Shown here: in pieces, positions 1-11,400 of the stretch | How the letters are laid out: the number at the start of each line of letters is the position of its first letter | How positions within the stretch are numbered: the first letter of the stretch is position 1 | Assembly: GCA_041481445.1 (NCBI GenBank) | Contig: JBGPBV010000007.1 | Span: 5,365 to 69,364 of the forward strand | Reading direction: 5' to 3' | From: Vicinamibacteria bacterium | GTDB taxonomy: Bacteria > Acidobacteriota > Vicinamibacteria > Fen-336 | DNA: 64,000 nucleotides | Notes under the pieces: generated by a model | Database searches by the model: none | What the model saw: the letters and a program-made list of their open reading frames with translations, nothing else | Told to the model about the DNA's origin: nothing | Translations under genes and position numbers: made by a program

Positions 1-1
1 C

Positions 2-199
2 ACCGGCCCCGCCGAGCGGCGGCTGATGATGATGGGGGCGTCGATCCTGGCCGTGGTGGCGGTGGTCGCGTTCTTGTGGCCGCGGATGCTGGCCTGGCCG
101 GTGGGCGCCCTCTGCCTGTGGTTCGCGGCCGCCCTGCTCCAGCGCGCGGCGCGGCTGCGTTCCAACCAGGCCCCCGAGCGTCCTCGCTCTTCGACCTGA
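2..199 (+). CDS. C-terminal fragment of an upstream gene, hydrophobic (membrane protein); stop TGA at 197-199
   Basis: Open frame from the window edge with a hydrophobic stretch (LAVVAVVAFLW...LCLWFAAALL) and high GC3. The gene is cut by the window start. Confidence 0.3.
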   Translation, partial: TGPAERRLMMMGASILAVVAVVAFLWPRMLAWPVGALCLWFAAALLQRAARLRSNQAPERPRSST

Positions 200-215
200 G
201 ACCCTCCGCGCCCGG

Positions 216-2048
216 TCAGCGCGAGGCGGTGATCCGTCGCAGCGCGGCCTGCGCGGCCTGGCGCACGTCGGAGTCGGAATCGTGCTCGGCGGCCACGAGC
301 GCGCTCACCGCGGCCGCGGCCGGTGGCCCGATGGCATCGAGGGCCATCGCGGCCTCCAGGCGCAGCTTCTCGCTCCGATCGGACAGGGCGGCGGCAAGGG
401 CCTCCGCGGCGGGGGCGGCGGCCGGGCCCAGCTTCCCGAGCGCGCGCGCGGCGCGCCAGCGGCCTTCGCCCTCGCCGTGCGCGAGGACCTCGCGGAGGCC
501 GGCCACGACCACAGGGTCGCCTCGCCCGATGTTGCCGAGCGCGCGCACGGCGACGGTGCGGACGCCCGTCACCGGATCCTTCAGGCGGAGGACCAGCGCC
601 GGCGCCGCCCCGGAGGCGGCGGGTCCGGCCACCCCCAGCGTCCAGGCCGCGAACGCGCGGATGTAGGGGTCCGGGTTGTCGAGCGTGTCGATCAGCCACG
701 GCACGTCCGCCGCCGCCCCCGCGCCACTGGCGGCGAGGGTGTCCGCCGCCGCCCACCTCACCGACTCGGAGGGATCGTGGAGGAGCGCGCGCAGTCGTTC
801 GTACGCCGCGCCGGGCGGGGGATGGCCGTCGGCGAGGGCGCCGAGCGCGCGCGCCGACTCCAGGCGCACGCTCGCCTCGCCGTCGGCCAGGCCGAGGGCG
901 AGCGCGGATACCCCGCCCGGAGTGGCGGGCCGCCGCCGGCCCAGCGCCCAGGCCGCCTCACGGCGTACGTCCGGCGACGGGTCCGCGACCAGCGCCACAA
1001 GGGCGGCCGCCGAGGCACGCTCCACTTCCGGCGGTGCGCCCGCCGCGGCGAGGGCGGCCCGGAAAGGGCCGATGGCGGTGGCCTCCGCGGGTACGATGGT
1101 CGCGGCGAGCACGGCCTCCGCCACCCGCGCGCTTCCGAGCGGCGTGAGGTGGAGACGGTCCATGAACGCCGACGGACCGAGCGCACGCAGGCCGGGCTGC
1201 ACGTCGATGACGGGCACGCCCTCCGCGCGCAGGAAGTCGTCGATCCGCGTCTCCGGGATGGGCGGCGGCGGAGAGGGCCCGACCTGGTCGGCGTCCGGAA
1301 GGACCATCACGGCCAGGCGCGCCCCGTCCTGCCGCACGTCGTCGGCCAGGGCGCGAAGCTCCGCGAACATCTTCTGGAACGCGGACGACACCTTGGCCGG
1401 CTCGGGCTGCCGGTAGAGCTCGTCGATGCTGCGGATCTCGCGGCCCTCGGCGTCGACCACACGCCGGACGAGGGCCGAGCGCTTGAAGAGCTCGACCAGG
1501 AGCGGCGGCGGCCGCGACAGGTTGTTGTGGAGGTCCTCGAGGTCGTTCAGGACCACGGCCAGCACGACGGCGTCGGGACGGTAGCGGCGCGCGATCCGCT
1601 CGTAGGCGTAGCGCTCCTGCCGCGTGGACCATCCGAGCAGGGCGACGTTGAACGCCTCGAGGCCGGGGCCGCGGGCGTCCGCCATCCGCTGCAGCGCTTG
1701 CGGCCAGGCCTCCTCGCGGGGGAAGCCGTAGCCCAGGGTCACGCTGTCGCCCAGGCAGACCAGCCGGAACGTGTGCGGCGGCTTCTCGATCGGATGGTGG
1801 CGGTCGCGCAGGCCGTCGGCGTTGACGTCCTGGACCGGCCATCCCACCGCCTCCGACTTCACGACGTAGAAGTCGCCGTTCCATTCCGTGTCCCAGTCCA
1901 GACCGCGGGTGTCCGCGAGGGGACGCGGCGCGGCCGGCTTCTCGAGCCAGCGGGCGACGGCCTCGGCGCCGCCCGCAACCACGACGGTCACGGCGAGGCT
2001 GAGCGAGAGGTTGACGAGCCACCCGCGCCACCCCCCGGCCCCTTTCAC
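216..2048 (-). CDS. Membrane-anchored SGNH/GDSL hydrolase fused to C-terminal HEAT (PBS-lyase-like) repeats
   Basis: N-terminal TM helix. GDS block LVCLGDSVTLGYG in an SGNH-like domain. C-terminal repeats of the DPSxxVRxxAAxALG type (DPSPDVRREAAWALG, DGEASVRLESARALG, DSDSDVRQAAQAAL). Confidence 0.55.
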   Translation of the reverse strand: MKGAGGWRGWLVNLSLSLAVTVVVAGGAEAVARWLEKPAAPRPLADTRGLDWDTEWNGDFYVVKSEAVGWPVQDVNADGLRDRHHPIEKPPHTFRLVCLGDSVTLGYGFPREEAWPQALQRMADARGPGLEAFNVALLGWSTRQERYAYERIARRYRPDAVVLAVVLNDLEDLHNNLSRPPPLLVELFKRSALVRRVVDAEGREIRSIDELYRQPEPAKVSSAFQKMFAELRALADDVRQDGARLAVMVLPDADQVGPSPPPPIPETRIDDFLRAEGVPVIDVQPGLRALGPSAFMDRLHLTPLGSARVAEAVLAATIVPAEATAIGPFRAALAAAGAPPEVERASAAALVALVADPSPDVRREAAWALGRRRPATPGGVSALALGLADGEASVRLESARALGALADGHPPPGAAYERLRALLHDPSESVRWAAADTLAASGAGAAADVPWLIDTLDNPDPYIRAFAAWTLGVAGPAASGAAPALVLRLKDPVTGVRTVAVRALGNIGRGDPVVVAGLREVLAHGEGEGRWRAARALGKLGPAAAPAAEALAAALSDRSEKLRLEAAMALDAIGPPAAAAVSALVAAEHDSDSDVRQAAQAALRRITASR

Positions 2049-2140
2049 CGCCGCTCCCTCCGCGCTGGCACGAGGCGATGATAGGGCGGTTCGCGCCGCG
2101 CGCAGTTGACGCCCGCGCCGGCTCGGCCTACGGTCGCGGC

Positions 2141-2923
2141 ATGCCGCGCTTCAAGCTGACCCTCGAGTACGTGGGCACCCGCTACCGCGGGTGGCAGGTC
2201 CAGAAGAACGCGCGGACGGTGGCGGGCGAGCTGCAGGGGGCCATCCGGGCCGCGGCCGGGCGCGAGCCGGGCGAGCTCTACGGCTCCGGCCGAACGGATG
2301 CCGGCGTCCACGCCCTGCACCAGGTCGCGCACGTCGACCTGGAGACGCGGATGCCTCCGCCGCAGCTCCTCTGGCGCATCAACGAGGAGCTGCCGGCCGA
2401 CATCAACCTGCTGGCCCTGGAGCCCGCGCCGCATCGCTTCCACGCCCGCCACGCCGCCGTAGCCCGCAGCTACCTCTACCAGATCGCCCGCCGGAGGACC
2501 GCGCTGGGCAAGCCGTTCGTCTGGTGGGTGAAGGACGCCCTCGACGCCGCGGCCATGGCGCGGGCGGCCCGCCGCTTCGAGGGCCTCCACGACTTCCAGT
2601 CCTTCACGGACCAGGCCGCGGAGGACGGCTCGACCAGGGTCAAGGTCGGCGCGGTCGAGGTGCGCGCGGAGGGCGCGCTGATCCTGATCCGCATCGTGGG
2701 CTCGCACTTCCTCTGGAAGATGGTCCGGCGCATGGTCGGCGTGCTGGCGGAGGTCGGCCGCGGCGCCCTCGACGAGACCGACGTCAGCCGCCTGCTGGGC
2801 GCGCCCGACGGCGCGGCGGCGGTGGCCCCCCTCACCGCGCCGCCGTCCGGCCTCTTCCTCGAGCGCGTCCTCTACGAGGGCGACCCGGAGCCGGGTCCGC
2901 TGCGGGCGGTGCTGGCGCTGTGA
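2141..2923 (+). CDS. truA: tRNA pseudouridine(38-40) synthase TruA
   Basis: MPRFKLTLEYVGTRYRGWQVQ is the canonical TruA N-terminus. ATG at 2141 inside the longer track ORF 2078..2923. Confidence 0.85.
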   Translation: MPRFKLTLEYVGTRYRGWQVQKNARTVAGELQGAIRAAAGREPGELYGSGRTDAGVHALHQVAHVDLETRMPPPQLLWRINEELPADINLLALEPAPHRFHARHAAVARSYLYQIARRRTALGKPFVWWVKDALDAAAMARAARRFEGLHDFQSFTDQAAEDGSTRVKVGAVEVRAEGALILIRIVGSHFLWKMVRRMVGVLAEVGRGALDETDVSRLLGAPDGAAAVAPLTAPPSGLFLERVLYEGDPEPGPLRAVLAL

Positions 2924-4002
2924 AAGGGCGGGCGGTCGCGCGCGTGCTCGCCGGCCTCGCTCTCCTCGCGGGGGCGGGCGCGGGCGATCTCCGCGCCGAG
3001 AGCTACGAGGACCTCGTGCGCGCCTCGGTGCGCGGCGACGTCATCGCGGCCGACCGCCTTGCCACCTGGCCGCGCTCCGACCTGCAGCTCCAGTTGAAGT
3101 GGCTGCGCGAGATGCGCGCCTGCGCGCAATGCGGCGAGCGCGCGCTCGCGGACCGGTTCCCGTTCCTGGGGGCCGTCCTCCTCCACACCGACCGCGCGTT
3201 CCGGGACGACGAGGCCGCACGCACCGAGTCACGGGACTTCCATCTCGACTTCGCGCTCGACCTGCTGGAGGCGGCGCCGCCGGCCGTCCGCCAGTTCGAG
3301 CCGGCCTGGTTCCTGGTCGTGGGCGATCATTTCCTGCAATTCATCGAGACGCCGGAAGCGCGCCGGTATTTCGCGGCCGGCCTCTCCCGATTCCCGGGCG
3401 ACGTGCGGCTCCGCATCGGAGAGGGGGCCGCCTTCGAGGCGGAGGCCCGGCTGACTCCGCTGCCCGACATCGTCTACTCGGGCGGATCGCCGACGCGAGT
3501 CCTGCTGGAAGATGCCAGCGCGCGCCGGAGCCTCTTCGTCCAGGCCGAGTCGGCCTTCCGGCGCGCCGCCGAGCTCGCCCCTGAATCCGCGGAGGCACGC
3601 CTGCGCCGCGGCCACGTCCTCATCGACCTCGGGAAGCAGGAGGAGGCCCGGCGCGAGCTGGCCTGGGTCCAGGACCACGTCCCCGCGGGCGACCTTCACT
3701 CCCTGGCCGCCCTCTTCCTCGGCCGGGCCGACGAGAAGGCGGGCCGCTGGGAAAGCGCGGCGACGCAGTTCCGCGAGGCGGCCCGCACCGGTCCGCCCGG
3801 GGCGCGCGCCGCCTACGTGGCGCTGGCCCATGCCCTCGACCGGCTGGGGCGCGCGCCGGAGGCGCAGGAGGTGGTGGACTCGCTGCTCGCCCGTCCCACC
3901 CGCGACGATCCGTTCGACGGCTACATCGTGGGACCGGCCGACGAGAAGGAGCGCCTCGTCGCGGAGATGCAGGCGGCCGCGCGTGCGAGCGCCGCCCCAT
4001 GA
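2920..4002 (+). CDS. Secreted TPR-like repeat protein (hypothetical)
   Basis: GTG 2920 overlaps the truA stop (GTGA). Signal-peptide-like N-terminus VKGRAVARVLAGLALLAGAGA, helical repeat content, ATGA overlap with the downstream VWA gene. The long 2191..4002 track ORF upstream of 2920 is frame noise over truA. Confidence 0.5.
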   Translation: MKGRAVARVLAGLALLAGAGAGDLRAESYEDLVRASVRGDVIAADRLATWPRSDLQLQLKWLREMRACAQCGERALADRFPFLGAVLLHTDRAFRDDEAARTESRDFHLDFALDLLEAAPPAVRQFEPAWFLVVGDHFLQFIETPEARRYFAAGLSRFPGDVRLRIGEGAAFEAEARLTPLPDIVYSGGSPTRVLLEDASARRSLFVQAESAFRRAAELAPESAEARLRRGHVLIDLGKQEEARRELAWVQDHVPAGDLHSLAALFLGRADEKAGRWESAATQFREAARTGPPGARAAYVALAHALDRLGRAPEAQEVVDSLLARPTRDDPFDGYIVGPADEKERLVAEMQAAARASAAP

Positions 4003-4904
4003 TCGGCACCGTCCTGCTCGCCGCCGTCACCGCCTCGCCGCCGCCCGTGTTCAGGGCCTCCGTCGAGAAGGTCTACGTGGACGCGTTCGTCAGCCGCGGC
4101 GGCCAGGCCGTCCGCGGCCTGCGCGAGAGCGACTTCGAGCTGCGCGACGACGGAGTGCCGCAGGCGGTGGAGCTGGTCGCCCTGGAACAGGCGCCCCTCA
4201 CCGTCGTCCTCGCCCTCGACACGAGCGGCAGCGTGGCCGGCCGCATGCTGGACGCCTTGCGCGCGGCCGCGCGCGCCCTGGTCGAGGGTCTCCCTGCCCG
4301 GGACCACGTCGGCCTGCTCACGTTCAGCCATCGCCTCGACCTGCGCGCGGGCCCGCAGGCCACGCGCGCGGAGATCCTGGGGGCGCTCGACCACCTGGAG
4401 GCGACGGGGGCGACGGCCCTGCACGACGCGATCTATGCCGCCATGCGCCTGTCCTCGCCCGAGGACCGCCGCTTGGTCGTGGTCTTCAGCGACGGCGCCG
4501 ACAACCGGAGCTGGCTCTCCGCGGACGACGTGCGCGAGGCCAGCCGCCGCACGGGCGCGGTCGTGTACGCGGTCTGCCGGGGCCCGCAGCCGGCGGCGGT
4601 CGTGGACGGCCCCCTCCGCGCCCCGCCGCCCGCGCGCGAGAGCGGCTCCGTGCGCGAGCTGCGGCTGCTGGCGGAGTCCACGGGCGGCCTGTTCCTCGAC
4701 GGCGCCGATCCCGCCGGCGTCCGCGCGCGCTTCCAGAGGGTGCTCGAGGACATGAGCACGCGCTACCTGCTGGCCTTCGTCCCGACCGGACGCCGCGCGG
4801 GCACGCACCGGCTGGAGGTGAAGGTGCGCGCCGGCAAGGGCACCGTGCGCTGCCGGCGCAGCTACGTCGTGGCCCCTCAGTTGCCGTCGGCGGGCACGAA
4901 ATAG
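3999..4904 (+). CDS. VWA (von Willebrand factor A) domain protein
   Basis: MIDAS-like DTSGS motif (LALDTSGSVAG) in a Rossmann-like VWA pattern. N-terminal anchor. Coupled to the upstream TPR gene. Confidence 0.7.
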   Translation: MIGTVLLAAVTASPPPVFRASVEKVYVDAFVSRGGQAVRGLRESDFELRDDGVPQAVELVALEQAPLTVVLALDTSGSVAGRMLDALRAAARALVEGLPARDHVGLLTFSHRLDLRAGPQATRAEILGALDHLEATGATALHDAIYAAMRLSSPEDRRLVVVFSDGADNRSWLSADDVREASRRTGAVVYAVCRGPQPAAVVDGPLRAPPPARESGSVRELRLLAESTGGLFLDGADPAGVRARFQRVLEDMSTRYLLAFVPTGRRAGTHRLEVKVRAGKGTVRCRRSYVVAPQLPSAGTK

Positions 4905-6122: not shown

Positions 6123-7961
6123 TCAGGGCCCGATGTAACTGGCCCGCCGCGACTCGAACTCGTCCCAGTAGAGCGTGCCGTTCGCGGTGGGCTTGACGTT
6201 GAGCGCGCCCATGCGCATGAAGTCGACCGAGCTGCGGCTGTTGGCCAGGCCGGTGAGCTGCGACTGGGACACGCCGTCGATCCACAGCTCGAAGGTCCCG
6301 TCGTTCGCGATCGCCGAGCTCGAGCGCTTCCAGTCCAGCTCGACGGAATGCGGGCCGTCGCTGATCGGGAAGAAGCCGGTGTCGGCCTGGCTGTCGTCGT
6401 CCAGCCGGCACCGACCCTCGATCGAGTAGGCGCCGCTGAGGCGCTTGAGCACGATGGCGGCCAGGCGGCGGGTGGGCGCCTCCTCGAAGACGATGAAGAG
6501 GCGCGTGCGGCGGGCCCCGCCCGTCTCGCCGGGGTCGTAGCTGTTGGTGTCGAAGTAGAACCGCGCGCGGTAGCGGTCCTCGTCGAGCGGGCTGTCGTCC
6601 TCGACGAACAGGCTGGCGGTGTCGTTGACCGTCCCCTTGAGGCCCACGGACGTCAACCGCATGGCCGCCAGCACCGACGGGACGAGGTCCCCGCCGCCGG
6701 TGGAGGAGGAGGACCAGGCCGACAGATCCGCGGACTCGAAGCCGTCCCTGAAGATCAGGTCGCGGGCGAACTCCCGGGCGAACACGCCGTACCCCGAGCC
6801 GTCCTGGCCGTTGCTGTTCCAGGCAACGACGAAGCGGCCATCCAGTTGTGACGTCACCGCCGGTAGACGCTGCTTGCCCGTGGTGTACGTGTTGACCTGG
6901 AACTCGTCGCCCTCGGGTGAACCGGTGGCATCGAGGGCGCGGGCGAAGATCCCGTATTGACTGCCGTCCTGCTGCGCGGACTCCCAGACGACCACGAAGC
7001 GGCCGTCGGCGGAGGCGGAGACGCGAGGCACCGCCTGGCCGCCGGTCGTGTACTGGTTCACCTGGAATTCCGGGCCGGGGGCGCCGCTCGGATCGTACTT
7101 CCGGGCGAACACGCCGGCGGTGCCGTTCTGACCATTGCTCTTCCACGCGACGAGAAAGCCTCCGTCGCCGCTCACGGCCACGCTCGGGCTGTCCTGGTTG
7201 CCGGTGGTGTAGGCGTTGGCCCGGAAGCTTCCTTGCGGCACACCCGCCGCGTTGAACCGGCGGCCGAACACTCCGCGTCCGCTCCCATCCCGCGCGCCAT
7301 CGCTCCAGACGACGACGAAGTCGCCCGTCGCGTTCATGCTGACGAAAGGGTAGGCTTGCGCGCCCGTCGTGTAGGTGTTGACGGCGAACTCAGCCCCCTG
7401 GGCGACGCCGGCCGCATCGTACCGTTGCGCGAAGAGGCCTTCGCTGGTTCCGTCCTGAAAGGCGCTCTGCCAGACCACGACGAAGTTGCCGGACCCGTCC
7501 ATGGCAACGGTCGGGTAGTTCTGGCTGTTCGTGGTGTAGGTGTTGACTCGGAACTCGGGGCCAGGGGTCCCGTCGGACTTGAACCGCCGGCCGAACACGC
7601 CGTATTTGCTCCCATCCTGCGTGTAGCTCGGCCACACGACGACCAGATCGCCGGCGGCGTCGGAGGCGACCGACGGAAAGGTCTGGAGGTCGGTCGTGAA
7701 GGTGTTGACGCGGAACTCTCCCGAGCCCAGCGGCGTCCCCGAGGGCGAGAACCGGCGGGCAAAGGCATCGAAGTCGATGCCGTTCGAACCCGACCACGTC
7801 ACCACGAAGTTGCCCGCCGAGTCGGATGCGATCGCGGACTCCCACTGGAAATTCGTCGTATAGGTGTTGACCTGGAATTCAGGTCCGAGTGGGACCTGTG
7901 CCCACGCCCTCGTGGCGAGGAGGGTCCCTACCCAGCAGAAGGCCCAGAGTCGTGTGCGCAT
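6123..7961 (-). CDS. Secreted repeat protein: signal peptide, 7 tandem ~52-aa repeats (beta-propeller-like), C-terminal ConA/LamG-like domain
   Basis: Signal peptide MRTRLWAFCWVGTLLATRAWAQ. Seven repeats of E-F-[QR]-V-N-T-Y-T-T-x-x-Q-x-x-P-x-V-A-x(4)-G-x-F-V-V-V-W-x-S-x-x-Q-D-G-S-x-x-G-V-F-G-R-R-F. A ~210-aa C-terminal beta-rich domain. Confidence 0.6.
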   Translation of the reverse strand: MRTRLWAFCWVGTLLATRAWAQVPLGPEFQVNTYTTNFQWESAIASDSAGNFVVTWSGSNGIDFDAFARRFSPSGTPLGSGEFRVNTFTTDLQTFPSVASDAAGDLVVVWPSYTQDGSKYGVFGRRFKSDGTPGPEFRVNTYTTNSQNYPTVAMDGSGNFVVVWQSAFQDGTSEGLFAQRYDAAGVAQGAEFAVNTYTTGAQAYPFVSMNATGDFVVVWSDGARDGSGRGVFGRRFNAAGVPQGSFRANAYTTGNQDSPSVAVSGDGGFLVAWKSNGQNGTAGVFARKYDPSGAPGPEFQVNQYTTGGQAVPRVSASADGRFVVVWESAQQDGSQYGIFARALDATGSPEGDEFQVNTYTTGKQRLPAVTSQLDGRFVVAWNSNGQDGSGYGVFAREFARDLIFRDGFESADLSAWSSSSTGGGDLVPSVLAAMRLTSVGLKGTVNDTASLFVEDDSPLDEDRYRARFYFDTNSYDPGETGGARRTRLFIVFEEAPTRRLAAIVLKRLSGAYSIEGRCRLDDDSQADTGFFPISDGPHSVELDWKRSSSAIANDGTFELWIDGVSQSQLTGLANSRSSVDFMRMGALNVKPTANGTLYWDEFESRRASYIGP

Positions 7962-8143
7962 TCGGGATCTCCGTTCAGCGCGTCGTGGCCGCGGAGGAGG
8001 GAGGGGGAGATTCTGGGGTGCGGTGTCGAAGCTGTCAATGACCGCCGCGCGTGCCGGGGCGCCCGGCCGCGCCGGTCAGGGTCCGATGTAGACAAGGGTC
8101 TGACAACTTGCGGCCGTTGTCGTTTCAGATGAATAAATTGAAG

Positions 8144-8217
8144 TGGGCCTGGAAGGACTCGAACCTTCGACTAGCCGGTTATGAGCCGGCCGTTCTAACC
8201 AACTGAACTACAGGCCC
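8144..8217 (-). tRNA. tRNA-Met (anticodon CAT), elongator-type; tRNA-Ile2 (lysidine) not excluded
   Basis: Reverse complement GGGCCTGTAGTTCAGTTGGTTAGAACGGCCGGCTCATAACCGGCTAGTCGAAGGTTCGAGTCCTTCCAGGCCCA folds as a cloverleaf. 7-bp acceptor stem, GTTC/GAAC D-stem, anticodon loop CTCATAA, T-loop TTCGAGT. No initiator features (1-72 pair present, no GGG/CCC anticodon stem). CCA not encoded. Confidence 0.8.
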
Positions 8218-8234
8218 GGAGACAGGGTATCAGA

Positions 8235-9050
8235 TCAGCGCAGGGTCACGGAGCGGAAGACCCCGCCCGAGGCCCACTCGCGGAACCAGCGGAAGAGCTG
8301 AAGGGCGGTGGGCGCGCGCCGGCCTCCGCGGGAGAGTACGGACGCCACCGCCTTGCCGAGCGGCTTTCCCGCCACGAGATCGGAGAGGAGGCCATGCGCG
8401 TGGCGGGAGAGATCCTGGCGCCAGATCGAGTAGTTGCGGCGGTAGAGGGCCACCCAGGTGTCCTTGCGCGCAAAGGAGGGATGGCCGTGGTCTCCGTCGC
8501 GCACGCTCTGCAGGTAGGCGTTGACGGGATAGCGGAAGGAGAGCAGGCGGAAGGCCTCGATGGGAGCCAGGCGCGCGCGCTCCCACTTGTCGGCAGGCAC
8601 CGCCGCGATCTCCGCCTCGCCCAGCGGCGCCACCTCCGGCGCGTCGAAGACCTCGGCCATCGCCAGCTCCAGGCGCGCCAGGTCGTGGCACACCTCCGGT
8701 CGCTTGGCGCCCTTCCAGCGGGCCACGAAGGCGGGCAGGTGGTCGCCCAGGCGGTTCAGGGTGTACGAGACCGAGGGGTGGGCGGCGACGTAGTCGCGCA
8801 CGAGGTCGCCGAACCCACGGTCGCCCAGGTAGTGCTTGAGGGCGGGATAGTCCGATTCCAGCGCCTCCTCCATCCGGAGCAGGTACATGCCCTGGTAGAT
8901 CTCGACGCGCGACACGGGGTCGAGCGACCGCGAGGGCAGGATCACGTCGTCGATCGTCGCGCGGCCCAGCGCGCGTCGGGCGCGCGGCGAGGCCACCGCC
9001 GCCTTCACGTCGCCGGGATGGACCACGACCTCCTGCATCCAGCGCTGCAT
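8235..9050 (-). CDS. DUF2063-family partner protein of the MNIO (HvfC/BufC-like)
   Basis: 271-aa protein starting MQRWMQEVV in the lower part of the 589-aa track ORF. 32 nt downstream of the DUF692 gene. Size and position are typical of DUF2063 partners in MNIO RiPP operons. Confidence 0.6.
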   Translation of the reverse strand: MQRWMQEVVVHPGDVKAAVASPRARRALGRATIDDVILPSRSLDPVSRVEIYQGMYLLRMEEALESDYPALKHYLGDRGFGDLVRDYVAAHPSVSYTLNRLGDHLPAFVARWKGAKRPEVCHDLARLELAMAEVFDAPEVAPLGEAEIAAVPADKWERARLAPIEAFRLLSFRYPVNAYLQSVRDGDHGHPSFARKDTWVALYRRNYSIWRQDLSRHAHGLLSDLVAGKPLGKAVASVLSRGGRRAPTALQLFRWFREWASGGVFRSVTLR

Positions 9051-9082
9051 GCGCGGGAGGGGGACCCCGGCGGCGGCCGGCC

Positions 9083-9928
9083 TCACCGGGCGGCGGCGAG
9101 CAGGGCCTGCTCGCGGAAGGCGCCCGCCTTGAGCGCCTCCGCGTGCACGACCTCGAACTCGGGGATGTTCTCGTCCCACTCGTAGAGGGTGGCCACGTTG
9201 CCGGTGCGCCGGCAGGAGCGGCGATAGAGGTCCCAGACCTCGTCGATGGCGTGATCGCTGTGGGTGTCGATGATGTGCGTGCCCTTGTGCGTGTGACCGG
9301 CCAGGTGGTACTGGACCACGCGGTCGGCGGGGACGTTGTCGACGTAGACCCGCGGGTCGAATCCGTGGTTGAAGGAGCTGACGTACACGTTGTTGACGTC
9401 GAGCAGCAGCCCGCAGTCCGCCTCCCGGGCCAGGCGCGAGAGGAACTCCCACTCCGGCATCGTCGAGTCCTTGAACTCGACGTACGAGGAGGGGTTCTCG
9501 AGGACGAGCGGCCGCTCCAGGATCTCGGAGACCTGCCGCACGCGGGCCGCGGTATGGCGCAGCGCCTCCTCCGTGTACGGCATGGGCAGGAGGTCGTGGA
9601 CGTTGCGCCCGGCCACTCCCGTCCAGCAGAGGTGGTCGGAGACCCAGTGCGCGCGCGTCCTTTCGGCCAGGGCCTTGAGCTTGCGGAGGTACTCGCGGTC
9701 GAGGGGATCCGTGCTGCCGATCGACATCGACACGCCGTGCAGCGCGACCGGGTAGCGCTCGGCCACGCCGTCCAGGACGTAGAGGGGCCGCCCGCCCGTG
9801 TCCATGAAGTTCTCGGAGAGGACCTCGAACCAGTCCACCTTCGGCCACTTTTCGAGGATGTGGGGGAAGTGGACGGTCCTCAGGCCGATGCCGATGCCGA
9901 GGTCGGGAAGGTTCCAGCGGTTGCCCAC
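9083..9928 (-). CDS. DUF692 / multinuclear non-heme iron oxidase (MNIO; MbnB/HvfB/BufB-like) TIM-barrel enzyme
   Basis: 281 aa with a xylose-isomerase-like TIM barrel and His/Asp/Glu metal-ligand pattern (HGVSMSIGS, HWVSDHLCW, VLENPSSY, LLLDVNNVYV, HLAGH, DTHSDHAID) characteristic of UPF0276/DUF692. Confidence 0.75.
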   Translation of the reverse strand: MGNRWNLPDLGIGIGLRTVHFPHILEKWPKVDWFEVLSENFMDTGGRPLYVLDGVAERYPVALHGVSMSIGSTDPLDREYLRKLKALAERTRAHWVSDHLCWTGVAGRNVHDLLPMPYTEEALRHTAARVRQVSEILERPLVLENPSSYVEFKDSTMPEWEFLSRLAREADCGLLLDVNNVYVSSFNHGFDPRVYVDNVPADRVVQYHLAGHTHKGTHIIDTHSDHAIDEVWDLYRRSCRRTGNVATLYEWDENIPEFEVVHAEALKAGAFREQALLAAAR

Positions 9929-10023
9929 GCGGTCTGCCCTGTATGAAGACGAATGAGGCCGGGGAAGGGGAAGAGGCCCGCAAAGGCCTCCTCCCCGTGC
10001 GCAATCAGATCAGACGATCGACG

Positions 10024-10470
10024 TTACCGGCCCTTGCAGCCGCTCTTGCCCTTGCAGGAGCTCTTGCCGGCCTTGTCCTTCGCCGCCTTCTCCATCACCC
10101 CCTTGGCGTGCTCGGCCGAGAGCGGGACCTTGCAGCCGCCCTTGCCCTCGCACGAGTTCTTGCCCGCGCAGCCGGCGTCGCCACCCTGGCAGCCGCCCAT
10201 GCCCTTGCACTTGTTCTGGGCCTTGCACTCGTGCTTGGCGGAGGTGGCGCAGCTCCCCTTGCCCGAACAGGCGTTCTTGGCGTCCGCGCCCTGGCCCTTA
10301 CACTTGTTGAAGCCCTTGCAGACGTGCGGTTCGGGCTTGTCCGCGGCCGGCGTCCCCGTCGTCTTGGCCGCCGCCGCCGGCTTCTTGGTGTCGTCCGCGA
10401 GCGCCCTGCTGCCCGCCATCATGCCCGCGGCCACCACGCCCATGACCTTCGTGAACTCTCTCCGGTCCAT
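10024..10470 (-). CDS. Cys-rich RiPP/metallophore precursor (HvfA/bufferin-like, 12 Cys), twin-arginine signal peptide
   Basis: MDRREFTKVMGVVAAGMMAGSRALA carries a Tat motif (RREFTK). Lys/Gly-rich core with 12 Cys spaced mostly C-x5-C in C-[KESA]-G-[KQM]-G-x units (CKGQGA, CSGKGSC, CKGMGGC, CEGKGGC, CKGKSGC). Strong SD AAGGAGA 7 nt upstream. First gene of the MNIO operon. Confidence 0.7.
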   Translation of the reverse strand: MDRREFTKVMGVVAAGMMAGSRALADDTKKPAAAAKTTGTPAADKPEPHVCKGFNKCKGQGADAKNACSGKGSCATSAKHECKAQNKCKGMGGCQGGDAGCAGKNSCEGKGGCKVPLSAEHAKGVMEKAAKDKAGKSSCKGKSGCKGR

Positions 10471-10554
10471 TCACTGTCTCCTTAAGTTTGTAGCCGTCCC
10501 TTGACGGTACATACCCCCGTTACCGCTTTCCGGCCCACCCTTTGCGGGAGTGTC

Positions 10555-10584
10555 GTTATGGTCCGAACCCCCGCCCGGTGTCAA
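10555..10584 (-). promoter_or_regulatory. Candidate sigma70-type promoter of the precursor-MNIO operon (-35 TTGACA, 18-nt spacer, weak -10 CATAAC)
   Basis: On the minus strand, TTGACA (10579-10584) then CATAAC (10555-10560), about 85 nt upstream of the precursor ATG. Sequence match only. Confidence 0.3.
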
Positions 10585-10671
10585 GGCGGGTCCTCCGGCG
10601 CCCCCCGTACGCGGGGAACAACGCCCGCGCCCGCCGCCGTATTCCCCGGGAATGCTAGAATTTGCTCCCGG

Positions 10672-11400
10672 ATGAACCCTCGCCTCGAACGACTGATCCA
10701 CCTCCAACGAGCGGACAGCGATCTGCGACGGACCCAGGAGGGGCTGGCCGAGATCCCCAAGCGCAAGGCGGAGCTGGAAGCGGAGCTCGCCGCCGGGCGC
10801 GCCCGTCTCGAGCGGGCGAAGGTCGAGCTGGACGAATCCCTCAAGGCCCGCCGGCGCCACGAGGGCTCGCTCCAGGACCTCGAAAGCAAGCGCTCGCGGT
10901 ACAAGAGCCAGCTCATGGAGGTGAAGACCAACAAGGAGTACACGGCCATGCTCCACGAGATCGAGGGGGTGGAGCGCGAGATCCGCGGCATCGAGGACCA
11001 GGTGCTCACGGAGATGGAGAAGGCGGAGACGCTGGCGGCCGAGATCAAGGCCGAGGAGGCCGCCTTCAAGGCCCGCGAGGAGCGGCATCGCGCGGCCGTC
11101 CGCGGCCTCGAGGAGCGCGCGCGGGTGCTGGAGGCGGACGCCGGACGTCTGGGGGCCGAGCGTGACCAGGTCGCGCAAGGCATCGACGAGGACACCCTCG
11201 ACCTCTTCCAGCGCGTGGCGCGCCTGCGCGGCTCCGCCATGGCCGAGGCCCGCGACAACATGTGCCAGGTCTGCCACGTGAAGCTGCGCCTGCAGATGTA
11301 CGTGGACCTCAAGCGCAACGAGGAGATCGTGCAGTGCCCGGCCTGCAACCGCATCCTCTATTACGAGCCGCCCGTCCCCGTGACCGTCCCCGAGCCCTGA
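10672..11400 (+). CDS. COG1579/DUF164 zinc-ribbon coiled-coil protein
   Basis: Long coiled-coil region followed by a C-terminal C4 ribbon (CQVCHVKL...CPACNRILY). ATG at 10672 inside the longer track ORF. Confidence 0.75.
   Translation: MNPRLERLIHLQRADSDLRRTQEGLAEIPKRKAELEAELAAGRARLERAKVELDESLKARRRHEGSLQDLESKRSRYKSQLMEVKTNKEYTAMLHEIEGVEREIRGIEDQVLTEMEKAETLAAEIKAEEAAFKAREERHRAAVRGLEERARVLEADAGRLGAERDQVAQGIDEDTLDLFQRVARLRGSAMAEARDNMCQVCHVKLRLQMYVDLKRNEEIVQCPACNRILYYEPPVPVTVPEP

What the first reader, a model, noticed from the sequence alone, without database searches (positions are those of the whole stretch)
10024..10470. Precursor with a twin-arginine signal, 148 aa, 12 Cys in a C-x5-C lattice of C-x-G-K-G-x units
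The N-terminus carries a canonical Tat motif (RREFTK, then an h-region and an AxA site). Described bufferin and HvfA precursors are reported with Sec signals; Tat export implies the peptide may be modified or folded (possibly metal-loaded) in the cytoplasm before export. The core is very Lys/Gly-rich and its 12 Cys are spaced almost regularly: 5,10,5,7,5,5,6,5,5,25,5. The repeat unit C-[KESA]-G-[KQM]-G-x recalls EGKCG-type HvfA repeats and 6/12-Cys bufferins but is not identical to either. At 148 aa it is long for a RiPP precursor. A strong SD (AAGGAGA) sits 7 nt upstream of the ATG.
Basis: seen in the sequence. Interest (0 to 1): 0.8.

Follow-up and report, generated by a model that had tools for sequence, protein, structure and literature searches.

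The report
Bufferin copper-peptide precursor with Tat signal
This is a real gene for a cysteine-rich copper-binding peptide precursor of the known "bufferin" kind, but it and most of its environmental relatives carry a twin-arginine (Tat) export signal, whereas every bufferin/MNIO paper I could search mentions only the Sec route.

Summary
On the minus strand, 10470->10024 encodes 148 aa with 12 Cys at the stated spacings, behind an AAGGAGA ribosome-binding site.

It heads a three-gene bufferin operon: precursor, MNIO maturase (BufB model 366.6 bits, cutoff 310) and a DUF2063 partner. The precursor is not a new class. It is a divergent BufA2 / BUF_6/12Cys bufferin: 109 of 113 relatives hit NCBIfam BufA2 and two RR-type relatives pass its cutoff. 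The window protein scores only 24.8 of 60 bits because its first 6-Cys unit is cut down to 4 Cys.

The N-terminus MDRREFTK-VMGVVAAGMMAGS-RALA|D fits a Tat signal. RR is invariant in 33 aligned relatives. Among 157 RR-type relatives, F is kept in 92% and K/R in 88%. A search with the signal-free core found 808 representatives. Of the best 150, about 77 have RR-type signals (some with a lipobox) and about 49 have Lys-type, Sec-like signals.

On a tree of the neighbouring maturases the two signal types form interleaved clades. No bufferin or MNIO paper I could search mentions Tat.

Tat export itself is predicted, not shown. I had no dedicated predictor, and the generic Tat HMMs missed this protein. 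I rate it a new variant of a known kind, of moderate interest.

The parts
10477..10483 (-). Shine-Dalgarno AAGGAGA, 6 nt before the ATG
   Evidence: Read directly from the sequence.
10024..10470 (-). bufA-like precursor gene: 148 aa plus stop. A divergent BufA2 / BUF_6/12Cys bufferin.
   Evidence: Translation. 113 homologue clusters. NF050166 BufA2 scores 24.8 bits, below its cutoff of 60. 109 of 113 relatives hit the same model.
10396..10470 (-). Predicted twin-arginine signal peptide, residues 1-25. The n-region MDRREFTK holds the RREFTK motif at 10447-10464. The h-region is VMGVVAAGMMAGS. The c-region is RALA, with an A-x-A site before D26.
   Evidence: R3 and R4 are invariant, F6 is kept in 94% and K8 in 85% of 33 aligned relatives. 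It has the same layout as the E. coli CueO signal MQRRDFLK...SRAVFA|A. RR-type relatives have shorter, more Gly-rich h-regions and more often a basic c-region than Lys-type relatives.
10327..10395 (-). Variable Ala/Pro/Lys-rich linker, residues 26-48
   Evidence: Mean column identity is 0.26, against 0.72 for the signal and 0.78 for the Cys units.
10243..10326 (-). Cys unit 1, residues 49-76 (HVCKGFNKCKGQGADAKNACSGKGSCAT). This is a shortened unit with 4 Cys (51, 57, 68, 74).
   Evidence: Alignment A1 shows a 10-column gap relative to those relatives that have 6 Cys in this unit.
10123..10233 (-). Cys unit 2, residues 80-116 (HECKAQNKCKGMGGCQGGDAGCAGKNSCEGKGGCKVP). This is a complete 6-Cys BufA2-type unit (82, 88, 94, 101, 107, 113).
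   Evidence: C88, C107, C113 and P116 are invariant. C82, C94 and C101 are kept in at least 90% of sequences. The best NF050166 stretch maps to residues 66-92.
10027..10122 (-). C-terminal extension, residues 117-148. It has a predicted helix at 119-135 and the tail SSCKGKSGCKGR with 2 further Cys (139, 145).
   Evidence: The tail is present only in the closest relatives. The helix appears in both AlphaFold runs, at low to moderate confidence.
9967..9996 (-). GC-rich hairpin (13-bp stem, 4-nt loop) between the precursor gene and the maturase gene. No U-run follows it.
   Evidence: Fold and coordinates. A stem of at least 8 bp lies within 90 nt after the precursor stop in about 90% of 97 related loci. 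The median z-score is -2.6, and several of these stems are followed by T-runs.
9083..9928 (-). bufB: MNIO (DUF692) bufferin maturase, 281 aa
   Evidence: NF050167 MNIO_BufB scores 366.6 bits (cutoff 310). PF05114 has E = 6.4e-110. The HvfB model scores 260.7 bits, below its cutoff of 360.
8235..9086 (-). bufC: DUF2063 partner protein, 283 aa. Its GTG start overlaps the bufB stop (GTGA).
   Evidence: PF09836 scores 63.7 bits (cutoff 27.2). Start codon and overlap. The public gene calls agree on 283 aa.

Best explanation
The gene encodes the precursor of a bufferin, a ribosomally made, post-translationally modified periplasmic copper-binding small protein of the BufA2 / BUF_6/12Cys family. It heads a bufA-bufB-bufC operon.

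Inferred mechanism:
1. The precursor is translated in the cytoplasm.
2. The MNIO enzyme BufB, together with the DUF2063 partner BufC, oxidises the inner Cys of each unit to 5-thiooxazoles. By homology with Buf2 these are probably C57 and C68 in unit 1 and C88, C94, C101 and C107 in unit 2. The outer pairs C51/C74 and C82/C113 would be left to form disulfides.
3. The modified, very hydrophilic protein is exported post-translationally by the twin-arginine translocase, directed by the MDRREFTK signal.
4. The signal is cut after ALA25, and the mature protein buffers Cu in the periplasm.

The most likely benefit of the Tat route is timing. Tat is strictly post-translational, so a substrate with many Cys has time to be fully modified before it leaves the enzymes.

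A hairpin between bufA and bufB probably raises precursor transcript levels relative to enzyme transcript levels.

Shown here: gene structure, family membership of all three genes, conservation of the RR-type signal, and its alternation with Lys-type signals in sister clades.

Inferred only: the chemistry, the copper function, the actual use of Tat and the role of the hairpin.
For: Operon:
- The precursor, MNIO (BufB model above its cutoff) and DUF2063 genes lie on one strand, with a bufB/bufC start-stop overlap.
- The same A-B-C order is found in every RR-type locus inspected.

Family:
- 109 of 113 relatives hit NF050166 BufA2.
- The RR-type relatives P0114 and P0100 exceed the curated cutoff.

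Tat signal:
- RR is invariant in the 33 aligned relatives and at least 90% conserved across all 113.
- Among 157 RR-type relatives the consensus is [DN]-R-R-[ED]-F-[TSN]-K, with F at 144/157 and K/R at 138/157.
- The layout matches the established Tat substrate CueO.
- The signal matches RR.[FGAVML][LITMVF], the TatP pattern as I recall it from my own knowledge.
- RR-type signals have shorter uncharged stretches (16 against 21-25 residues) and a higher Gly fraction (0.22 against 0.13).
- RR-type signals more often have a basic residue after the h-region: 107/146 against 15/34, Fisher p=0.002.
- RR is not a GC-driven replacement of K by R. The same protein uses 25 Lys and only 4 Arg.

Breadth:
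- A search with the signal-free core gave 808 representatives. Of the best 150, about 77 are RR-type, about 49 are Lys-type and the rest are fragments or fusions.
- More than 522 loci were found in species-representative genomes of Acidobacteriota, Planctomycetota and Steroidobacteraceae/Woeseiaceae.

Chemistry and function are by homology: in Buf2 the four central Cys become thiooxazoles, the outer pair forms a disulfide, and the protein protects against copper (PMC11626156).

Precedent: Cys-rich periplasmic copper storage proteins of the Csp1 type carry Tat signals (PMC7558416).
Against: - I had no dedicated Tat predictor.
- The generic Tat HMMs did not hit this protein. TIGR01409 gave nothing at E<=1, and Pfam gave no hit at E<=10, including on the N-terminal 35 aa alone. 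Only 3 of 113 relatives hit TIGR01409 at E<=0.01.
- The residue after F is polar (T/S/N), not the consensus Leu.
- I did not look for the Tat machinery in this genome.
- AlphaFold gave no confident fold for the core (pLDDT about 40), so 'folded before export' has no structural support.
- Sec-type and lipoprotein-type sister clades exist with homologous cores and maturases, so Tat cannot be a chemical necessity.
- The comparative statistics use related sequences and are not phylogenetically independent.
- The window protein itself falls below the BufA2 cutoff (24.8 against 60 bits).
Confidence: 0.65

Rival explanations
1. It is a bufferin precursor, but it is exported by Sec like the characterised bufferins. 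The RR motif would then be non-functional for Tat, or the signal would be promiscuous between the two routes.
For: The characterised bufferins use Sec signals (PMC11626156). Close sister clades with homologous h-regions have Lys-type n-regions. The generic Tat HMMs do not recognise this protein. The h-region hydrophobicity of RR-type and Lys-type relatives differs only modestly (2.1 against 2.2-2.3).
Against: RR, the F two residues later and the K four residues later are kept across more than 150 diverged sequences, while neighbouring positions and the linker vary freely. Lys-type relatives lose the F and K as well as the RR. The shorter, Gly-rich h-region and the basic c-region are the known Sec-avoidance features.
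Confidence: 0.2
2. The conserved N-terminus is first of all a RiPP leader recognised by BufC or BufB. Its twin-arginine look would then be secondary to that recognition role.
For: The signal region is as conserved (0.72) as the Cys units (0.78-0.79), which is unusual for signal peptides. The AG-xx-AG core of the h-region is kept in both RR-type and Lys-type relatives. The authors of PMC11626156 leave open that a leader may overlap the signal peptide.
Against: For BufA1 the signal peptide was dispensable for modification (PMC11626156). This reading does not explain why RR-x-F-x-K specifically is conserved. It is also compatible with Tat export rather than an alternative to it.
Confidence: 0.1
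3. It is an unmodified, metallothionein-like, Cys-rich periplasmic metal-binding protein that merely sits next to an MNIO gene.
For: The composition is Cys/Gly/Lys-rich and no confident fold was predicted. The literature notes that a sizeable share of Buf precursors are encoded away from MNIO genes.
Against: The precursor-MNIO-DUF2063 order is conserved across phyla. The protein is homologous to BufA2, whose Cys are experimentally modified. There was no Pfam hit to any family at E<=1.
Confidence: 0.03

Closest known systems
Bufferin 2 (BufA2, CCNA_03001) of Caulobacter vibrioides and the BUF_6/12Cys / NCBIfam NF050166 family
   Same: The Cys-Gly-Lys-rich core is homologous and built from 6-Cys units. 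The bufA-bufB-bufC operon has no DoxX gene. The maturase passes the BufB model, and the precursor has an N-terminal export signal in place of a classical leader.
   Different: The signal is twin-arginine type, not Sec type. The first unit is reduced to 4 Cys and an extra 2-Cys tail is added (4+6+2). The window protein is below the family's curated cutoff (24.8 against 60 bits). The hosts are uncultured Acidobacteriota-like bacteria, and all public copies I looked up are named 'hypothetical protein'.
HvfA / oxazolin (Buf_EGKCG) precursors of Haemophilus influenzae and other Pseudomonadota
   Same: They are signal-peptide-bearing, Cys/Gly/Lys-rich copper-binding MNIO substrates with a DUF2063 partner (PMC12452194).
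   Different: The window protein has no repeated EGKCG motif and no 17-residue repeats. The maturase scores 260.7 bits on the HvfB model (cutoff 360) but passes BufB. The partner scores 41 bits on HvfC (cutoff 142).
Csp1-type copper storage proteins
   Same: They are Cys-rich periplasmic Cu(I)-binding proteins that carry a cleavable Tat signal (PMC7558416).
   Different: Csp1 proteins are four-helix bundles that bind Cu through unmodified Cys thiolates. They have no maturase, and there is no sequence similarity: the PDB profile search gave no hit.
E. coli CueO (multicopper oxidase), an established Tat substrate
   Same: The signal layout is nearly the same: MQRRDFLK...SRAVFA|A against MDRREFTK...SRALA|D. 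Both are periplasmic copper-defence proteins.
   Different: The mature proteins are unrelated. CueO needs Tat because it folds in the cytoplasm; why the bufferin would need Tat is unknown.
Lipidated MNIO RiPPs that use the lipoprotein pathway (DybA, chryseobasin-like; PMC13056109)
   Same: Here too an MNIO-modified precursor borrows a general export signal. Relatives of the window protein also occur with lipoboxes, both with and without RR.
   Different: They belong to a different MNIO subfamily (ChrH) with different chemistry. They use Sec/SPII signals, and no Tat signal is described for them.

Membership tests
BufA2 / BUF_6/12Cys bufferin precursors (NCBIfam NF050166) | Score at or above the curated cutoff of the family model (60 bits) | tested here: not met
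   The window protein scores 24.8 bits at E=1.9e-5. 109 of 113 relatives match at E<=0.01. The RR-type relatives P0114 (72 bits) and P0100 (63.7 bits) pass. The protein is therefore a homologue but a divergent one.
BufA2 / BUF_6/12Cys bufferin precursors (NCBIfam NF050166) | Six or twelve conserved Cys arranged in one or two 6-Cys units | tested here: inconclusive
   Unit 2 has the full 6 Cys. Unit 1 has only 4, because of a 10-column deletion. Two extra Cys lie in a C-terminal tail. The total of 12 is reached as 4+6+2.
BufA2 / BUF_6/12Cys bufferin precursors (NCBIfam NF050166) | Gene order precursor - MNIO - DUF2063 on one strand | tested here: met
   Window positions 10470-10024, 9928-9083 and 9086-8235, all on the minus strand. 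The same order holds in L001-L009.
BufA2 / BUF_6/12Cys bufferin precursors (NCBIfam NF050166) | Central Cys converted to 5-thiooxazoles; the product binds copper and protects against copper stress | not testable with these tools
   Known for Buf1 and Buf2 of C. vibrioides (PMC11626156). Here it is inferred by homology only.
BufB, MNIO-family bufferin maturase (NF050167) | Score at or above the curated cutoff (310 bits) | tested here: met
   366.6 bits, with profile positions 1-261 of 262 covered. PF05114 scores 367 bits.
DUF2063 / BufC-HvfC partner proteins | N-terminal DUF2063 domain (PF09836) in the gene directly after the MNIO gene | tested here: met
   63.7 bits against a cutoff of 27.2. 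The HvfC equivalog NF050145 scores only 41.1 bits against 142, so it is not an HvfC equivalog.
Twin-arginine (Tat) signal peptides | n-region motif (S/T)-R-R-x-F-L-K close to the N-terminus | tested here: met
   D-R-R-E-F-T-K at residues 2-8. RR, F and K match the consensus, and Thr replaces Leu. RR is invariant, F is kept in 92% and K/R in 88% of 157 RR-type relatives.
Twin-arginine (Tat) signal peptides | Moderately hydrophobic, Gly/Ala-rich h-region, a basic residue in the c-region (Sec avoidance) and an A-x-A cleavage site | tested here: met
   The h-region is VMGVVAAGMMAGS (13 uncharged residues), followed by R22 and then A-L-A|D. Within the family, RR-type signals are shorter, richer in Gly and more often basic after the h-region than Lys-type signals. 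The sequences compared are not independent.
Twin-arginine (Tat) signal peptides | Recognition by a trained model (TIGR01409, Pfam Tat-signal models, SignalP 6, TatP) | tested here: not met
   TIGR01409 gave nothing at E<=1 and Pfam gave no hit at E<=10 for this protein. Three of 113 relatives hit TIGR01409 at E<=0.01. SignalP 6 and TatP were not available.
Twin-arginine (Tat) signal peptides | Export depends on TatABC and on the RR pair; tat genes are present in the genome | not tested
   The dependence itself needs an experiment. I also did not search the window for tat genes, and only 64 kb of the genome was available.
HvfA / Buf_EGKCG oxazolin precursors | Repeated EGKCG motifs in 17-residue repeats, with an HvfB-type maturase | tested here: not met
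   No EGKCG motif is present; the nearest stretch is CEGKGGC at residues 107-113. The maturase scores 260.7 bits on the HvfB model, below the cutoff of 360.

The most novel reading that the evidence does not exclude
The Tat route may let the bufferin leave the cytoplasm already heterocyclised, folded and loaded with Cu(I). The operon would then work as a stoichiometric copper export from cytoplasm to periplasm. BufC would bind the unusually conserved signal peptide and act like a Tat proofreading chaperone, holding the precursor back until all Cys are modified.
Probability: 0.1. Interest if true: 0.8.

Novelty: new variant of a known kind. Interest (0 to 1): 0.55.

Why it matters
Bufferins were introduced in 2024 as the first RiPPs known to use Sec signals for export in the native producer, and later surveys describe MNIO precursors as Sec-dependent.

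Here a large, unannotated environmental branch of the same family carries twin-arginine signals. It spans Acidobacteriota, Planctomycetota and Steroidobacterales, and RR-type signals make up more than half of the closest 150 representatives. Some are combined with a lipobox. Sec-type clades are interleaved among them on the maturase tree.

This offers a natural experiment on how the export route interacts with cytoplasmic peptide modification: time available for modification, pore size, folding and metal loading.

It could also be a ready-made Tat leader for exporting modified peptides, something engineers have speculated about for lanthipeptides, reporting that preliminary attempts failed (PMC5686179).

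It also means that surveys which select only Sec-signal precursors may undercount or mislabel this branch.

Tried and rejected
- AlphaFold2 was run twice, with 33 and with 113 aligned sequences. Mean pLDDT was 51 and 45, and the core scored about 40. I drew no fold inference and ran no fold search.
- A profile search against PDB sequences gave no hit at E<=1.
- Pfam gave no hit for the protein. DUF7640 (PF24646) is hit weakly by 16 relatives, and I did not interpret this.
- The generic Tat HMMs gave no hit for the window protein.
- A sigma-70 promoter and intrinsic-terminator scan of 7900-10800 found no promoter upstream of the precursor and no canonical terminator.
- Crude gene calling by GC3 was useless at 72% GC, because both strands pass the filter. 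I therefore did not annotate the whole window and did not look for tat genes.
- The supplement of PMC12452194 held no sequence resembling MDRREF and no mention of Tat. No supplement is held for PMC11626156, so I could not read the C. vibrioides BufA2 sequence.
- I considered that RR might be a GC-driven K-to-R replacement and rejected it. The protein has 25 Lys and 4 Arg.
- I considered that the ORF might be spurious and rejected it (homologues, GC3, SD).
- I considered an EGKCG/HvfA assignment and rejected it.

Full report
1. THE OBSERVATION

The gene lies on the minus strand. The ATG is at 10470 and the stop at 10026-10024, and it encodes 148 aa:
MDRREFTKVMGVVAAGMMAGSRALADDTKKPAAAAKTTGTPAADKPEPHVCKGFNKCKGQGADAKNACSGKGSCATSAKHECKAQNKCKGMGGCQGGDAGCAGKNSCEGKGGCKVPLSAEHAKGVMEKAAKDKAGKSSCKGKSGCKGR

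The 12 Cys are at positions 51, 57, 68, 74, 82, 88, 94, 101, 107, 113, 139 and 145. AAGGAGA sits 6 nt upstream of the ATG, not 7. GC3 of the ORF is 0.97 in a window of 72% GC.

2. SURROUNDINGS

Two genes follow on the same strand.
- The first (9928-9083) is an MNIO / DUF692 enzyme. It passes NCBI's curated model for the bufferin maturase BufB (366.6 bits, cutoff 310) but not the models for HvfB (260.7 against 360), MbnB, ApyH or ChrH. It is a full-length PF05114 match.
- The second (9086-8235) starts with a GTG that overlaps the bufB stop (GTGA). It carries the DUF2063 domain (63.7 bits, cutoff 27.2).

This is the bufA-bufB-bufC layout of bufferin gene clusters, here without a DoxX gene. The sequence is identical to a stretch of a metagenome-assembled genome, GCA_041499675.1. 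The same three genes in the same order occur in every RR-type relative whose neighbourhood I fetched.

A 13-bp GC-rich hairpin (9967-9996) lies between the precursor and bufB. A stem of at least 8 bp within 90 nt after the precursor stop is present in about 90% of 97 related loci (median z -2.6), and in several it is followed by a T-run. I read it as an attenuator or transcript stabiliser that favours the precursor message. That is inference.

3. WHICH FAMILY

The protein has no Pfam hit. Its only NCBIfam hit is weak: BufA2, 24.8 bits, cutoff 60.

It does have 113 homologue clusters. Of these, 109 hit the BufA2 model at E<=0.01. The RR-type relatives P0114 (72 bits) and P0100 (63.7 bits) pass the curated cutoff.

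The alignment shows that the family consensus is two 6-Cys units:
- H-x-C-K-G-x-N-x-C-K-G-x-G-G-C-x-x-G-D-x-G-C-A-G-K-N-S-C-K-G-K-G-G-C

The window protein has lost the middle of unit 1, leaving 4 Cys. It keeps unit 2 intact with 6 Cys. It also has a 2-Cys tail (SSCKGKSGCKGR) shared only with its closest relatives.

It is therefore a divergent BufA2 / BUF_6/12Cys bufferin. It is neither a new class nor an EGKCG/HvfA-type protein. Its length is inside the published range of 51-367 aa for Buf2 (PMC12452194).

By homology with Buf2, where the four central Cys become 5-thiooxazoles and the outer pair forms a disulfide (PMC11626156), I expect the following. This is inferred:
- C88, C94, C101 and C107 are modified, and probably also C57 and C68.
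- C51/C74 and C82/C113 form disulfides.

4. THE SIGNAL

MDRREFTK / VMGVVAAGMMAGS / RALA|D has the twin-arginine n-region (consensus S/T-R-R-x-F-L-K, with Thr here for Leu). It also has a short Gly/Ala-rich h-region, a basic residue in the c-region and an A-x-A site. The layout is almost that of E. coli CueO, [28 protein letters not shown]|A, which I read from the MG1655 genome. That CueO is a Tat substrate is established knowledge.

The strongest evidence is comparative.
- In 33 aligned relatives, R3 and R4 are invariant, F6 is kept in 94% and K8 in 85%. D2, E5 and T7 vary.
- Over 157 RR-type sequences the consensus is [DN]-R-R-[ED]-F-[TSN]-K, with F in 144 and K/R in 138.
- The signal region as a whole (mean column identity 0.72) is as conserved as the Cys units (0.78-0.79). 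The linker behind it is not (0.26).
- RR is not a by-product of high GC. The same protein has 25 Lys and only 4 Arg.

Within the family, RR-type signals compare with Lys-type signals as follows:

| Feature | RR-type | Lys-type |
|---|---|---|
| Uncharged stretch (residues) | about 16 | 21-25 |
| Gly fraction of the h-region | 0.22 | 0.13 |
| Basic residue right after the h-region | 107/146 | 15/34 |

All three differences go in the direction known for Tat against Sec signals. The sequences are related, so the p-values overstate the case.

Against the Tat reading, the generic Tat HMMs did not hit this protein, and only 3 of 113 relatives hit TIGR01409. I had no SignalP or TatP.

5. HOW WIDESPREAD

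To avoid bias from the signal itself, I searched 1.84 billion representatives with the signal-free core only (residues 49-148). This gave 808 proteins at E<=0.001 and 110 at E<=1e-10.

I sorted the N-termini of the best 150 by pattern and then corrected the result by eye:
- about 77 have RR-x-F type n-regions, of which roughly 35-40 also carry a lipobox Cys (Tat-lipoprotein-like)
- about 49 have Lys-type n-regions, of which 18 have a lipobox
- 18 are fragments
- a few are fusion proteins

In species-representative genomes, more than 522 loci encode relatives.
- RR-type signals dominate in Vicinamibacteria, Bryobacterales/Terriglobia, Steroidobacteraceae/Woeseiaceae and Pirellulales.
- Lys-type signals dominate in many Thermoanaerobaculia/Sulfomarinibacteraceae.
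- Lys-type lipoprotein signals dominate in other Planctomycetota.

On a neighbour-joining tree of the adjacent maturases, the signal type is uniform within clades. However, Tat-type and Sec-type clades are interleaved, which implies several switches (no support values). All public copies I looked up are named 'hypothetical protein'.

6. WHAT THE LITERATURE SAYS

The founding bufferin paper and the 2025 survey describe Sec signals only. The words Tat and twin-arginine occur zero times in their main texts, and a search of the survey's supplement files for 'Tat' returned only unrelated words. The same is true of four further papers:
- the Antarctic-soil paper that first saw BUF_6/12Cys precursors
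- the Fontimonas thiooxazole preprint
- the Microbulbifer paper
- the 2026 lipoprotein-pathway paper

No paper in the library combines MNIO with twin-arginine in a relevant way. The survey selected precursors by 'predicted Sec signal peptide' using SignalP 6, so this branch may have been lumped in or missed.

Two precedents are relevant. Csp1-type Cys-rich copper storage proteins carry Tat signals (PMC7558416). A lanthipeptide-display study speculated that Tat could prolong the contact of a RiPP precursor with its cytoplasmic enzymes (PMC5686179).

7. MECHANISM

The most likely sequence is:
- cytoplasmic modification by BufB and BufC
- post-translational export by Tat
- cleavage after Ala25
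- periplasmic copper buffering

I think the benefit of Tat is timing: it gives a many-Cys substrate a guaranteed window for modification before export. I do not think the modified product is unable to pass Sec, because sister clades manage with Sec-type signals.

AlphaFold gave no confident fold, so I cannot argue from folding. The mature part is small and very hydrophilic. From my own knowledge, such substrates can pass Tat even when unstructured.

The conservation of the h-region motif AG-xx-AG in both signal types is unexplained. It may mean that the signal doubles as a recognition element for BufC. For BufA1 the signal was dispensable for modification under overexpression.

8. VERDICT

This is a real feature. 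All three genes belong to a known kind of system (bufferin). The variant aspect is the twin-arginine signal, which is conserved, widespread in uncultured lineages and, as far as I could find, undescribed.

Tat export remains a prediction. I put about 0.9 on the bufferin assignment and about 0.7 on Tat use.

Noticed in passing
window 8143-8217 (-): A tRNA-Met (anticodon CAT) gene lies 17 nt downstream of the bufC stop, on the same strand.
   Followed up: partly
window 9967-9996 (-); related loci L004-L090: A GC-rich hairpin directly after the precursor gene is conserved as a structure, not as a sequence, in about 90% of 97 related loci. In some it has a T-run like an intrinsic terminator. In loci with very short intergenic gaps, the 90-nt test window runs into the maturase gene.
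   Followed up: partly
proteins P0156, P0192, P0196, P0205: Four proteins of 357-410 aa have an N-terminal DoxX domain (PF07681, 59-72 bits) and a C-terminal BufA2-like Cys domain. This is a DoxX-bufferin fusion, and it is not among the fusions listed in the part of PMC12452194 that I read. P0188 joins a BufA2-like core to a DUF2063 domain in one ORF; this could be a gene-calling artefact.
   Followed up: partly
window 10396-10470 (-) and alignment A1: The signal peptide is as conserved as the Cys units (0.72 against 0.78). A15, G16, A19 and G20 are nearly invariant, and this AG-xx-AG motif is also kept in the Lys-type (Sec-like) relatives. No explanation has been tested.
   Followed up: partly
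L010 3896-6399 (Planctomycetota MAG): Two BufA2-like lipoprotein-type precursors (119 and 132 aa) flank the MNIO-DUF2063 pair instead of a single precursor in front of it. L049, L067, L077, L081 and L083 also encode two precursors.
   Followed up: no
window 1-4667: From the coordinates, the NCBI contig JBGQKR010000001.1 would end about 4.6 kb inside the window. The window therefore seems to come from a longer or different assembly of the same organism.
   Followed up: no
window 6123-7961 (-): The next gene downstream encodes a 612-aa secreted-looking protein with many repeats of the type 'F.VNTYTTG.Q..P.V' and no recorded Pfam hit.
   Followed up: no
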